Positions 46,841 to 48,682 of a stretch of 64,000 nt of DNA are shown in pieces; within the stretch, counting starts at the first letter, position 1; each line of letters begins with the position of its first letter. Under the pieces are notes generated by a model. That model searched no databases. It was not told the DNA's origin and saw nothing but the letters and a program-made list of their open reading frames with translations. The DNA is taken from the NCBI RefSeq assembly GCF_030384885.1, contig NZ_CP128613.1; one strand, given 5' to 3'. The DNA comes from Escherichia coli. Its GTDB lineage: Bacteria; Pseudomonadota; Gammaproteobacteria; Enterobacterales; Enterobacteriaceae. The translations under genes were made by a program, and so were the position numbers.

Positions 46841-48682
46841 ATGATGGATTTTTTATATCAGGAATTAGCAAAAGCAGGGATAGCACTTTCTGTCAAAGAG
46901 CTTTTCACTCGCGTGGTATCTGCATGGGATAAAAAAAATTTAAGTGGGAAGCAACTTGTTAGAGAGTTGACTGGTTCAGAGGTATATCTGAACTATCTTG
47001 AGAAACATGTAGCAAGAGTGGTCCGACTAAGAACGATCCATAGTGCTGATTATGATATTCTGCTGACTAATTTATATCATCCATTAGGTATCACATCTTT
47101 ATCTCCCGGTGCAACTGAACATAAAGTCAATGACGGCTTCTATATAGAAAATCAACATATTACTAATATCATAGGAATAGCAGGGCAAGGGAAAAGTACT
47201 ATTTTAAGAAAACTGTTCATAGAACAAATAAAGAATGGAACAAAAATACCATTTTTTATTGAATTACGTAGAACTGGAAATGATGGGATCATTAAATCTC
47301 TTGAAAATACATTAATCAATCTTGGATTATACCCGACGTCCCAAGCAATTGATGAATTGTTATTTAGTAATAAAATATCTTTAATGTTAGATGGATTTGA
47401 TGAGGTCAACTCAAAGCAAAAAGATATTTTACTAAGTGAGATATTGATGCTAAACGTAAAATATGCATTGCAAGTAATAGTTACGTCGAGACCGGGTACA
47501 ACTGTTTGCAATGAACCATCAATTGTTAATTATAAAGTCGAAAAACTTAAAGAAAAAGACATACTGGCAATTATAGAAAAACTCAATACTAACAATGGAG
47601 TTATAGACAAAGAACAATTGCCGAAAATAAAAGATACAATTAAAAATAACAAAAATCTTGTTTCTGTGATGACTTCACCTATTCTGGTAACGCTTTTTCA
47701 TGTCTGTTATCCATTCATGGATATTATCCCCAATAATACAGTAGAATTTTATTCAAATCTGTTTATGACATTATATCTTCGACATGACAAAGTTAAAAAC
47801 TTTGACCGCGAAAAATCTTCCTCTTTAAGTCATAATGAAGCATATGACTGTTTCTGTACATTATGTTTTTACTCAATTTATACGAATAATCATGAATTTA
47901 CAGAGCAGTCACTAAATGAATATACAGAAAAATCAATGAAGTTAAAGGGACGGTTTGGTGAATGCAAAGCGGAGTCATTAGCTCAGGATTTTATTAATGT
48001 AACTTGTTTAATTCAGCGAGAAGGCTTTAATAAATATATCTTTATTCATAAATCGATTCAAGAGTATCATGCAGCAGAATTTATAAAAAATATATCATCA
48101 GATCAGAAAAATAAATTTTATAGTTTTCTTGTTGAAGATATTAAAAAAAATGAATTACGATTTTCTAATGTTATAGTATTCCTTAAAGAAATAGATGTCA
48201 TAGATTGTGCTAAATTCTTAATTATTCCACTGTGCGAATATTTTGGCGTTTCAAAATGGAATGCTTTGACCCCATTGGAATACAAGGATTTATTACGTAC
48301 ATTTTTCTCCGATACCTACATTCATTTATTTAATGACATTAATGATAAAGATATAATGGGGTTCAGTTCATTATCAGGGGTTAGTGGCTGGATGCAATTA
48401 TTAGATATCAGCGGCAATAATGATTTATATACGCCTGTGTTTGAAGTGTTAATAGATGAATCATTGTCAAGTGCGAATTTTAAAGATGTTGTAACCAGTC
48501 AAGATCGGCAAATGGTAAAAGTTTCATTTATGAAGGCAATAATACAATTAGGGATTGAAGACAAAATAGTTGAAGTGTTTATCAAAAATATTAAGAAAAT
48601 ACATAACGAAGTATATTGTGAAGCCATTAATAAAGTAAATAACGAGGATGTTAGTATTAAGGAGTTCTTTGATCTGATTTAA
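46841..48682 (+). CDS. NACHT/STAND-class P-loop NTPase (bacterial NLR-like)
   Basis: ORF 46832..48682; Walker A GIAGQGKST about 110 aa from N-terminus; Walker B hhhhDGFDE (LMLDGFDEV). Confidence 0.8.
   Translation: MMDFLYQELAKAGIALSVKELFTRVVSAWDKKNLSGKQLVRELTGSEVYLNYLEKHVARVVRLRTIHSADYDILLTNLYHPLGITSLSPGATEHKVNDGFYIENQHITNIIGIAGQGKSTILRKLFIEQIKNGTKIPFFIELRRTGNDGIIKSLENTLINLGLYPTSQAIDELLFSNKISLMLDGFDEVNSKQKDILLSEILMLNVKYALQVIVTSRPGTTVCNEPSIVNYKVEKLKEKDILAIIEKLNTNNGVIDKEQLPKIKDTIKNNKNLVSVMTSPILVTLFHVCYPFMDIIPNNTVEFYSNLFMTLYLRHDKVKNFDREKSSSLSHNEAYDCFCTLCFYSIYTNNHEFTEQSLNEYTEKSMKLKGRFGECKAESLAQDFINVTCLIQREGFNKYIFIHKSIQEYHAAEFIKNISSDQKNKFYSFLVEDIKKNELRFSNVIVFLKEIDVIDCAKFLIIPLCEYFGVSKWNALTPLEYKDLLRTFFSDTYIHLFNDINDKDIMGFSSLSGVSGWMQLLDISGNNDLYTPVFEVLIDESLSSANFKDVVTSQDRQMVKVSFMKAIIQLGIEDKIVEVFIKNIKKIHNEVYCEAINKVNNEDVSIKEFFDLI

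What the first reader, a model, noticed from the sequence alone, without database searches (positions are those of the whole stretch)
46841..48682. NACHT/STAND NTPase embedded between two H-NS-family genes
The 614-aa protein has a Walker A (GIAGQGKST) about 110 aa from the N-terminus and the NACHT-type Walker B hhhhDGFDE (LMLDGFDEV), then about 300 aa of C-terminal sequence with no recognisable repeats. Bacterial NACHT proteins are described antiphage sensors, but the short N-terminal region (a candidate effector) and the C-terminal region here are unassigned. It is flanked by an H-NST-like truncated H-NS and a full H-NS paralog.
Basis: partly seen in the sequence, partly recalled or inferred. 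Interest (0 to 1): 0.6.

Follow-up and report, generated by a model that had tools for sequence, protein, structure and literature searches.

The report
Known-type bacterial NACHT antiphage gene
The gene is a real, intact bacterial NACHT immune-sensor gene of the already characterised bNACHT01/bNACHT12 type, carried as swappable cargo in the well-known E. coli serU island, so it is an ordinary new allele of a known antiphage family, not a new system.

Summary
The ORF is real: 46841/46844..48682 on the + strand, 613 or 612 aa. Pfam calls the protein NACHT, and an AlphaFold model matches NLRC4, NAIP, NOD2 and NLRP3 best.

It is not unassigned. It is 62% identical, gap-free over 611 aa, to bNACHT12. 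It is 58% identical to bNACHT01. Both are validated antiphage proteins of NACHT clade 14 (Kibby et al.). The C-terminal 180 aa is a diverged SNaCT sensor domain by profile-profile comparison. The N-terminus carries the family's MD... extension.

By homology to bNACHT11, the likely mechanism has four steps:
- SNaCT binds phage proteins.
- The protein forms an ATP-dependent heptamer.
- The N-terminal extensions cluster.
- The cell dies by plasmolysis.

The flanks are H-NST and Hfp, backbone genes of the known serU island. The slot between them holds other cargo in other E. coli strains, including a PD-T4-6-type kinase. Relatives elsewhere mostly have no H-NS neighbour.

Verdict: new member of a known kind, low interest.

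The parts
46844..48682 (+). bNACHT01/12-like NACHT gene: 612 aa plus stop. Alternative starts are ATG 46841 (613 aa, the public annotation) and GTG 46832.
   Evidence: ORF. Pfam NACHT E=6.4e-10. 62% identity to bNACHT12 and 58% to the bNACHT01 type. Most homologues start 'MD...', which favours 46844. The ATGATGGAT start region is conserved in the Salmonella copy.
46844..46978 (+). N-terminal extension (aa 1-45, MDFLYQELAKAGIAL...), the presumed death effector.
   Evidence: Corresponds to the ~45-aa extension of bNACHT11, where D2A and P3A abolish defence. D2 is kept here. Position 3 is F, against I in bNACHT01 and L in bNACHT12. 26 of 38 homologues have D or E at position 2.
47144..48133 (+). 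NACHT module (aa ~101-430): P-loop domain followed by helical and winged-helix parts.
   Evidence: Pfam. Lowest column entropy of the protein, 1.5-1.6 bits. AF2 model has pLDDT 83.8; the top Foldseek PDB hit is NLRC4 4kxf at E=3e-13, followed by NAIP, NOD2 and NLRP3.
47174..47200 (+). Walker A GIAGQGKST (aa 111-119; K117).
   Evidence: G111, A113, G114, Q115, G116, K117, S118 and T119 are invariant in 39 sequences. K117 aligns with K115 of bNACHT01 and bNACHT11, which is required for defence and contacts ATP.
47381..47407 (+). Walker B LMLDGFDEV (aa 180-188).
   Evidence: L182, D183, G184, D186 and E187 are invariant and F185 is at least 90% conserved.
48134..48679 (+). SNaCT-type C-terminal sensor domain (aa 431-612), including the C-terminal tail IKEFFDLI.
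   Evidence: Entropy is 2.74 bits against 1.5 for the NACHT part. Identity to bNACHT01 is 32% here against 71% in residues 46-430. hhalign gives 99.6% probability against the bNACHT11-like C-termini and 94.4% against the Pfam-SNaCT1-positive group. No Pfam SNaCT hit for the protein itself.
46470..48893 (.). The swapped cargo cassette: similarity to other serU-type islands stops just after the hnsT stop codon and resumes at the hfp stop codon.
   Evidence: Megablast pieces cover only query 1-469 and 2895/2902-3501 of window 46000-49500 in 664 genomes. The alternative cargos are shown.
46786..46813 (+). Promoter-like site (TTGATC-16-CATAAT) about 30 nt upstream of the start codon.
   Evidence: Consensus scan only, and the number of sites in the region is not above the shuffled expectation. 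The hexamers are conserved in the Salmonella copy.
46217..46459 (+). hnsT: truncated H-NS with the oligomerisation domain only (H-NST).
   Evidence: NCBIfam H-NS model positions 5-76 only. 96% identical to the 'H-NS family' 80-aa protein of E. coli KBN10P04869. H-NST of the serU island is described in PMC7074111.
48894..49298 (-). hfp (hnsB): full-length H-NS paralogue.
   Evidence: 100% identical to WP_001287374.1, the protein annotated in UPEC 536. Scores fall below the H-NS and StpA equivalog cut-offs. Hfp of the serU island is described in PMC2814080.
43794..43883 (+). tRNA-Ser (serU), the island's attachment site. The E. coli core sequence ends here.
   Evidence: ARAGORN. 100% identity to E. 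coli 2013C-4282 stops at window 43883.
53641..55705 (+). Type I Thoeris (thsA 53641-55077, thsB 55094-55705), a second defence cargo of the same island.
   Evidence: PADLOC ThsA1 8e-203 and ThsB1 1e-85.

Best explanation
This is a single-gene antiphage system of NACHT clade 14 (bNACHT01-like). It has three parts: a ~45-aa N-terminal extension, a NACHT ATPase module and a C-terminal SNaCT domain. Shown here: the architecture, the intact ATP-binding motifs, full-length homology to validated members, and a defence-island setting. Inferred from bNACHT01, bNACHT12 and bNACHT11: in uninfected cells the protein is a monomer. During infection the SNaCT domain binds one or more phage proteins, in bNACHT11 by beta-augmentation on an exposed strand plus a hydrophobic patch. 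[quoted passage not shown] The clustered N-terminal extensions act at the membrane, and the cell dies by plasmolysis before the phage completes its cycle (abortive infection). The divergent SNaCT sequence implies a trigger and phage range different from those of the tested alleles. The gene is cargo in a variable slot of the serU genomic island, between the backbone genes hnsT and hfp.
For: - **NACHT identity.** Pfam NACHT at E=6.4e-10. Walker A, Walker B and R216 are invariant in 39 homologues. The AF2 model (pLDDT 83.8, pTM 0.77) has NLRC4, NAIP, NOD2 and NLRP3 as top PDB matches, the same top hits reported for bNACHT11.
- **Homology to tested members.** 62% identity over 611 aa without gaps to WP_021519735.1, which is bNACHT12 (defends against T4, T6 and MS2). 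58% to the bNACHT01 cluster (T4, T5, T6). 45% over residues 1-472 to a 93%-identical proxy of bNACHT11.
- **C-terminal domain.** It is homologous to SNaCT domains by hhalign (99.6% and 94.4% probability). It shows the published pattern of a stable NACHT part and a diversifying C-terminus.
- **Mapped functional residues.** K115 maps to K117, R214 to R216 and D2 to D2. The hydrophobic interface positions I519, F522, I549 and I553 map to F507, L510, F533 and I537, on or next to a predicted strand (E501-509). The tail ...FFDLI is conserved.
- **Gene organisation.** It is a stand-alone gene with a 384-nt upstream spacer, convergent with hfp.
- **Defence context.** Thoeris lies 5 kb away. A PD-T4-6-type kinase occupies the same slot in strain D7. 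bNACHT01 sits next to CBASS.
Against: - No experiment exists for this allele.
- PADLOC 2.0 has no matching model, and no Pfam SNaCT family matches it.
- Position 3 is F, not the conserved P of the 'MDPIT' motif. bNACHT01 (I) and bNACHT12 (L) also lack the P and are active.
- The SNaCT residue mapping rests on a MAFFT alignment of a region with 14-30% identity and is tentative.
- If translation starts at 46841 (MMD...), there is one extra N-terminal residue. N-terminal additions inactivated bNACHT11.
- The gene is about 31% GC and sits between H-NS-family genes, so it may be silenced under laboratory conditions.
Confidence: 0.78

Rival explanations
1. The gene is a functional clade-14 NACHT whose expression is gated by xenogeneic silencing. 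H-NS, possibly with Hfp, would silence the AT-rich cassette. H-NST, or phage-encoded H-NS inhibitors, would relieve the silencing. On this view the H-NS-family flanks are part of how the system works.
For: The cassette is about 31% GC and lies directly downstream of hnsT on the same strand, with no terminator-like site between them. hfp itself is H-NS-repressed (PMC2814080). All cargo genes seen in this slot share this orientation. An unrelated element, the IncX plasmid, places a clade-14 NACHT 83 nt downstream of hha-hns on the same strand. This is also the context of bNACHT02.
Against: None of 80 species-representative loci of relatives has an H-NS homologue within 5 kb. The Serratia orthologue, bNACHT01 and bNACHT12 have no H-NS neighbour. 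hnsT and hfp are backbone genes of every serU-type island whatever the cargo. bNACHT01 and bNACHT12 defend from their own promoters in E. coli.
Confidence: 0.12
2. The gene is a silent or decaying passenger that is intact by sequence but gives this host no defence.
For: The IncX copy in ETEC1720 is split into two CDSs. Many database entries of this cluster are partial. None of 5426 complete E. coli genomes carries it.
Against: The reading frame is full length and co-linear with active homologues to the last residues, with all invariant residues intact. The identical protein occurs on at least 24 contigs, and alleles at 90% identity or more in hundreds of Salmonella sequences. The upstream 380 nt is 95% conserved between E. 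coli and Salmonella. The 'partial' entries end at contig ends.
Confidence: 0.07
3. The protein is a STAND NTPase of another kind (Avs/AVAST, NB-ARC or a transcriptional regulator) that only resembles NACHT.
For: There is a weak NB-ARC Pfam hit at E=0.016, and several nSTAND hits at E>0.1.
Against: NACHT is the only significant Pfam family. No PADLOC Avs model matches. The top 50 structural matches are all animal NACHT NLRs. The protein shows full-length 58-62% identity to named bNACHT proteins.
Confidence: 0.02

Closest known systems
bNACHT12 (WP_021519735.1, E. coli HVH 41; on IncFII plasmid pEC012-4 in the complete-genome set)
   Same: 612 aa, gap-free alignment, 62% identity. The two share the N-terminal MD... 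extension, NACHT motifs, SNaCT-type C-terminus, tail ...FDx, and single-gene layout.
   Different: The last ~130 aa are only about 30% identical, so the trigger range probably differs. bNACHT12 is carried on a plasmid between IS elements, not in the serU island.
bNACHT01 (WP_015632533.1, Klebsiella pneumoniae MGH 35), founding member of NACHT clade 14
   Same: 58% identity over the full length. The Walker A lysine K115 corresponds to K117 here. Both show a stable NACHT part and a hypervariable SNaCT.
   Different: SNaCT identity is 32%. bNACHT01 lies next to a type II CBASS on a plasmid.
bNACHT11 (WP_114260439.1), the mechanistically and structurally characterised clade-14 member
   Same: 45% identity over residues 1-472. 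ATP-contacting K and R, D2 and the hydrophobic C-terminal tail are conserved. The SNaCT profiles are homologous at 99.6% probability.
   Different: Its SNaCT is 27 aa longer and cannot be aligned by pairwise BLAST. Its N-terminal motif is MDPIT, against MDFLY here. Its triggers (T2 gp6, gp9, gp57; T4 30.5) cannot be assumed for this allele.
serU genomic island of UPEC 536/CFT073 (related to EARL/ROD21-like islands)
   Same: Same insertion site (serU). Same backbone order: DUF6387, AlpA, two small ORFs, hnsT, [cargo], hfp, DUF4756, RepL ... MobQ. The Hfp protein is identical.
   Different: Strain 536 has a DUF6404 gene in the hnsT-hfp slot and no Thoeris. This island carries the NACHT gene and Thoeris.
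Animal NLRs (NLRC4, NAIP, NOD2, NLRP3)
   Same: The fold of the NACHT module (Foldseek E 1e-13 to 1e-8) and ligand-induced ATP-dependent oligomerisation, the latter by inference from bNACHT11.
   Different: 14-17% sequence identity. No LRR sensor and no CARD/PYD effector. The sensor is a 180-aa SNaCT domain and the effector a ~45-aa peptide.

Membership tests
NACHT NTPases (STAND; Pfam PF05729) | Significant match to the NACHT profile. | tested here: met
   PF05729 at E=6.4e-10, residues 110-248. It is the only family with E<0.001.
NACHT NTPases (STAND; Pfam PF05729) | Walker A GxxGxGKS/T and NACHT-type Walker B hhhhDGhDE, conserved among homologues. | tested here: met
   GIAGQGKST (111-119) and LMLDGFDEV (180-188). 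The core residues are invariant in 39 sequences.
NACHT NTPases (STAND; Pfam PF05729) | NBD plus helical plus winged-helix fold like that of NLR proteins. | tested here: met
   AF2 model with pLDDT 83.8. The top 50 Foldseek PDB matches are NLRC4, NAIP, NOD2 and NLRP proteins, best E=3.3e-13.
bNACHT clade 14 (bNACHT01-like; Kibby et al.) | Full-length sequence homology to the named members. | tested here: met
   62% to bNACHT12, 58% to the bNACHT01 cluster, 45% (residues 1-472) to the bNACHT11 proxy.
bNACHT clade 14 (bNACHT01-like; Kibby et al.) | Short, repeat-free, rapidly diversifying C-terminal SNaCT domain in place of LRR/TPR/WD40 repeats. | tested here: met
   The 182-aa C-terminus has entropy 2.74 bits against 1.5. 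hhalign to the C-termini of relatives gives 99.6% and 94.4%. The model shows helices plus a small sheet and no repeats.
bNACHT clade 14 (bNACHT01-like; Kibby et al.) | Short N-terminal extension with the conserved M-D-(P) start and no recognisable enzymatic effector domain. | tested here: met
   MDFLY...: D2 is present, and P3 is replaced by F. bNACHT01 (I) and bNACHT12 (L) also lack the P. No Pfam domain in residues 1-100.
bNACHT clade 14 (bNACHT01-like; Kibby et al.) | Single-gene system. | tested here: met
   No co-varying partner gene. The neighbours differ completely among five contexts.
bNACHT clade 14 (bNACHT01-like; Kibby et al.) | Walker-A-dependent protection against phage, and oligomerisation on trigger binding. 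| not testable with these tools
   Requires plaque assays and biochemistry.
Pfam SNaCT1 (PF22710) | Match to the SNaCT1 profile HMM. | tested here: not met
   No SNaCT hit even at E<=10. A 36%-identical relative (P0061) matches at 4e-10. The bNACHT01 cluster itself carries no PF22710 annotation. The domain is therefore filed as SNaCT-type by profile-profile homology, not as a member of the Pfam SNaCT1 family.
Avs / AVAST and other PADLOC-modelled STAND defence proteins | Match to a PADLOC model. | tested here: not met
   0 families at E<=1.
serU island (H-NST/Hfp-encoding genomic island) | Insertion at the 3' end of tRNA-Ser serU, low GC, and backbone genes hnsT and hfp. | tested here: met
   Core identity ends at window 43883. 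GC is 0.31-0.44 against about 0.50. hnsT and hfp are identified. Synteny with strain 536. Literature.

The most novel reading that the evidence does not exclude
The hnsT-hfp interval of serU/EARL-type islands may be a dedicated defence-cargo slot whose expression is tied to the flanking H-NS antagonist and paralogue. Cargo found so far includes the clade-14 NACHT here and a PD-T4-6-type kinase in strain D7, and the unassigned cargos may include undescribed systems. Under this reading, relief of H-NS silencing by H-NST or by phage anti-H-NS proteins would switch the immune gene on. The same arrangement recurs on IncX plasmids (hha-hns-NACHT).
Probability: 0.12. Interest if true: 0.55.

Novelty: new member of a known kind. 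Interest (0 to 1): 0.2.

Why it matters
For the NACHT gene itself there is little new. It adds an untested SNaCT variant to a family whose members are already validated and whose mechanism has been worked out. The allele is rare in E. coli (0 of 5426 complete genomes) but common in some Salmonella. It would be useful as one more natural sensor allele for mapping how SNaCT sequence sets phage-trigger specificity.

The context is slightly more useful. It shows that the long-studied serU 'pathogenicity' island of ExPEC carries two defence-cargo positions: the hnsT-hfp slot and the Thoeris position. That reframes part of the island as a mobilisable defence island, and it points to the unassigned cargos in the same slot as candidates for new systems.

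Tried and rejected
- **PADLOC on the NACHT protein.** No hit. This reflects the library's content and is not evidence against defence.
- **NCBIfam.** Only a sub-threshold EruA NACHT hit and P-loop noise.
- **PDB sequence search.** No hit. The bNACHT11 cryo-EM structure is not in the copy, so the SNaCT domain could not be compared with an experimental structure.
- **General H-NS linkage of the family.** Rejected. tblastn with four H-NS-family queries found no homologue within 5 kb in 80 species-representative loci, nor in the Serratia, bNACHT01 or bNACHT12 contexts.
- **Boundary repeats of the cassette.** No direct or inverted repeats flank 46470-48893, so there is no sign of a transposon or integron-like cassette. 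Exchange is presumably by homologous recombination through the conserved flanks (inference).
- **RNA elements.** Rfam finds none in or next to the gene.
- **Promoter and terminator scan.** Not above the shuffled expectation. The site at 46786-46813 is only a candidate.
- **Literature.** Two searches for a described defence hotspot or H-NS-controlled defence in serU/ROD21-type islands found nothing specific. This covers the held library only.
- **Not attempted.** Modelling the SNaCT domain alone, and complex prediction with phage proteins. No multimer tool was available.
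Full report
**1. Observation**

The window has one long ORF at the stated place. It runs from 46832 (GTG) to 48682 on the + strand, with in-frame ATGs at 46841 and 46844. From 46844 it encodes 612 aa.

The motifs are as quoted. In 612-aa numbering, GIAGQGKST is residues 111-119 and LMLDGFDEV is residues 180-188. The region is about 31% GC against about 50% for the neighbouring core genome. A stop-free run of this length there cannot be chance.

The exact protein, in both start variants, is already in public databases as 'NACHT domain-containing protein [Escherichia coli]'. 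It sits in a 90%-identity cluster of 636 sequences, most of them from Salmonella enterica.

**2. Is it NACHT?**

Pfam gives NACHT (PF05729) as the only significant family, at E=6.4e-10. NB-ARC and the nSTAND families are at noise level.

A database search returned 167 relatives. Most of those listed are 605-672 aa long (a few are shorter partial entries), almost all carry PF05729, and they come from Enterobacterales, Vibrio, Photobacterium, Pseudoalteromonas and Aeromonas.

In an alignment of 39 of them (32-70% identity to the query), these residues are invariant:
- the Walker A residues G111, A113, G114, Q115, G116, K117, S118 and T119;
- the Walker B residues L182, D183, G184, D186 and E187;
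- R216.

An AlphaFold2 model built on that alignment has mean pLDDT 83.8 and pTM 0.77. Its 50 best Foldseek matches in the PDB are all animal NACHT NLRs: NLRC4 4kxf at E=3e-13, then NAIP/NLRC4, NOD2, NLRP3 and others.

**3. Which NACHT?**

Table S2 of Kibby et al. (bioRxiv 10.1101/2022.07.19.500537) lists the tested bacterial NACHT proteins.

| Tested protein | Identity to the window protein | Defends against | Source of the sequence used |
|---|---|---|---|
| bNACHT12 (WP_021519735.1) | 62% over 611 aa, no gap | T4, T6, MS2 | CDS on IncFII plasmid pEC012-4 carrying that accession |
| bNACHT01 | 58% over the full length | T4, T5, T6 | P0009, 609 aa; differs at one of the ~400 residues printed in Table S2 and lies next to a CBASS operon as the paper describes |
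| bNACHT11 | 45% over residues 1-472 | T2, T4, T6 | P0041, a 93%-identical, equal-length proxy that has every residue named in the bNACHT11 paper at the same number |

These three proteins belong to 'clade 14'. That clade is defined by a short, repeat-free, fast-evolving C-terminal domain named SNaCT and by the lack of a recognisable N-terminal effector domain.

**4. The 'unassigned' ends**

C-terminus. Column entropy is 1.5-1.6 bits across residues 101-430 and 2.74 bits across residues 431-612. Identity to bNACHT01 is 71% in residues 46-430 and 32% in residues 431-612. This reproduces the published contrast between a stable NACHT part and a diversifying SNaCT.

Pfam's SNaCT1 model does not match this protein, although it matches a 36%-identical relative at 4e-10. 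The bNACHT01 cluster also lacks that Pfam annotation. Independent profile-profile comparison of the C-terminal pieces gives two results:
- 99.6% probability (E=1e-24, 176 columns) against the bNACHT11-like group;
- 94.4% probability (E=9e-8, 166 columns) against the SNaCT1-positive group.

I therefore call it an SNaCT-type domain, but not a member of the Pfam SNaCT1 family.

N-terminus. 26 of 38 homologues begin M-D or M-E. The window protein reads MDFLY from 46844. bNACHT01 starts MDIIQ and bNACHT12 starts MDLVF. That favours 46844 as the start, although the public annotation and the Salmonella copy keep ATGATGGAT.

**5. Mechanism, inferred from Robbins et al. (bioRxiv 10.1101/2024.12.17.629029)**

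For bNACHT11 the paper reports the following:
- The SNaCT domain directly binds several unrelated phage proteins through beta-augmentation plus a hydrophobic patch (S518, I519, F522, I549, I553).
- Binding with ATP, but not ATP hydrolysis, gives a heptameric wheel.
- The last seven residues dock into the neighbouring SNaCT domain and are essential.
- The unresolved ~45-aa N-terminal extension (motif MDPIT; D2A and P3A are dead) is needed for cell death.
- Death looks like plasmolysis and depends on the osmolarity of the medium.

Mapping through a family alignment gives these correspondences:

| bNACHT11 residue | Window protein |
|---|---|
| K115 | K117 |
| R214 | R216 |
| D2 | D2 |
| P3 | F3 |
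| S518 | G506 |
| I519 | F507 |
| F522 | L510 |
| I549 | F533 |
| I553 | I537 |
| tail LKDILGF | IKEFFDL(I) |

Residues 501-509 are a predicted beta-strand. The SNaCT part of this mapping lies in a poorly conserved region and is tentative.

I therefore expect the same chain of events here: SNaCT binding of phage protein(s), an ATP-dependent wheel, clustered N-termini and abortive infection by plasmolysis. The trigger set should differ from those of the tested alleles. The homology and the motifs are shown here. The activity is inferred.

**6. Context**

The core sequence is E. coli. It is 100% identical to strain 2013C-4282 up to window 43883, the 3' end of tRNA-Ser serU.

From there to the window's end lies an AT-rich island with this backbone:
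- DUF6387, AlpA and two small ORFs;
- hnsT, then the cargo slot, then hfp;
- DUF4756 and RepL, then further genes, with MobQ near the end.

The order is syntenic with annotated islands in KBN10P04869, D7 and UPEC 536. The 134-aa H-NS paralogue is identical to WP_001287374.1, the protein annotated at this position in strain 536. Müller et al. named the serU-island H-NS paralogue of strain 536 Hfp (PMC2814080). The 80-aa protein is H-NST, a dominant-negative H-NS antagonist of the serU island (PMC7074111).

The two H-NS-family genes are thus fixed backbone genes of the island. Similarity between islands stops just after the hnsT stop codon and resumes at the hfp stop codon. The interval holds different cargo in different strains:

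| Strain | Cargo between hnsT and hfp |
|---|---|
| UPEC 536, Nissle 1917 | a DUF6404 gene |
| KBN10P04869 | two hypothetical genes |
| D7 | a Ser/Thr kinase matching the PD-T4-6 defence family (E=3e-47), with two small ORFs |
| this window | the NACHT gene |

None of 5426 complete E. coli genomes has this NACHT gene. Its nearest relative there is bNACHT12, at 70% nucleotide identity over the first 77% of the gene. The same island with the same cassette occurs in Salmonella enterica, next to clpA and with an integrase. The upstream 380 nt is 95% identical between the two.

A type I Thoeris system occupies a second cargo position 5 kb downstream. That backbone-plus-Thoeris version is in 48 complete E. 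coli genomes.

**7. Is the H-NS embedding meaningful for the NACHT?**

Mostly not. Relatives sit in quite different places:
- a Serratia chromosome between ampC and a lacI-family gene;
- a Klebsiella plasmid next to CBASS;
- an IncFII plasmid between IS elements.

None of 80 species-representative loci of relatives has an H-NS homologue within 5 kb.

There is one recurrence. IncX plasmids carry topB-hha-hns followed, 83 nt downstream on the same strand, by a bNACHT02/11-like gene. The cloned bNACHT02 fragment in Kibby's table begins with the C-terminus of that plasmid's Hns.

So two unrelated mobile elements place a clade-14 NACHT just downstream of an H-NS-family gene. This may mean no more than that AT-rich cargo accumulates next to 'stealth' genes. 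A regulatory link cannot be excluded, and I give it about 12%.

**8. Verdict**

The gene is an untested allele of a well-characterised antiphage family, carried in a known island. Novelty: new member of a known kind. Interest is low (0.2). The small residual interest lies in the distinct SNaCT allele and in the hnsT-hfp interval as a defence-cargo slot.

Noticed in passing
window 53641-55705 (+): A complete type I Thoeris system (thsA SIR2-SLOG 478 aa; thsB TIR 203 aa) lies in the same island, 5 kb downstream of the NACHT gene. The island backbone with Thoeris is present in 48 of 5426 complete E. coli genomes at about 95% identity.
   Followed up: partly
window 51909-52355 and 52470-53432 (+): Two ORFs (148 and 320 aa) lie directly upstream of thsA on the same strand. 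Neither has a PADLOC hit, and the 320-aa ORF has no NCBIfam hit (the 148-aa ORF was not searched there). They may be accessory or independent cargo genes.
   Followed up: partly
L091 (E. coli D7, NZ_CP010150.1) 5838-8882; L001 9510-10727; L092 3569-3919: The same hnsT-hfp slot holds other cargo in other strains. D7 has a 498-aa Ser/Thr kinase matching the PD-T4-6 antiphage family (3e-47) between two small hypotheticals. KBN10P04869 has two hypotheticals of 138 and 249 aa with no PADLOC hit. 536 and Nissle have DUF6404. In these three strains all cargo genes are co-oriented with hnsT.
   Followed up: partly
L006 (IncX-type plasmid of E. coli ETEC1720) 2795-7599: topB-hha-hns is followed 83 nt downstream, on the same strand, by a clade-14 NACHT gene, which is split into two CDSs in this plasmid. 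The Hns C-terminus equals the start of the cloned bNACHT02 fragment of Kibby et al. This is a second, independent juxtaposition of an H-NS-family gene and a bNACHT gene.
   Followed up: partly
window 49990-50053: A tandem array of about six copies of the 8-nt unit TTAGCTCT lies between the DUF4756-like gene (49455-49934, -) and the RepL-like gene (50127-50684, -). It could be replication iterons or a slippage-prone tract.
   Followed up: no
window 42078-42802: An EFASI sRNA (Rfam RF02957, 90 bits) lies at 42078-42207 (+). Next to it are a short ORF resembling the N-terminus of a P4-type integrase (42368-42667, -; annotated elsewhere as 'Arm DNA-binding domain-containing protein') and tRNA-Asn (42727-42802, -). 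This looks like the remnant of another island at an asn tRNA.
   Followed up: no
protein cluster of P0001: Many Salmonella enterica entries of this protein's 90% cluster are 'partial' at 376-425 aa, so contigs often end inside the gene near the NACHT/SNaCT boundary. The cause is unknown. One possibility is a second paralogue that shares the conserved NACHT part and breaks short-read assemblies.
   Followed up: no
window 58888-60369 (-) and 61713-63759 (+): A 493-aa ORF lies at the position where related islands annotate a MobQ relaxase. It is followed by two ORFs whose N-termini look like type IV prepilins. The prepilin reading is by eye only. Together with RepL this suggests that the serU-type island is a mobilisable element.
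   Followed up: no
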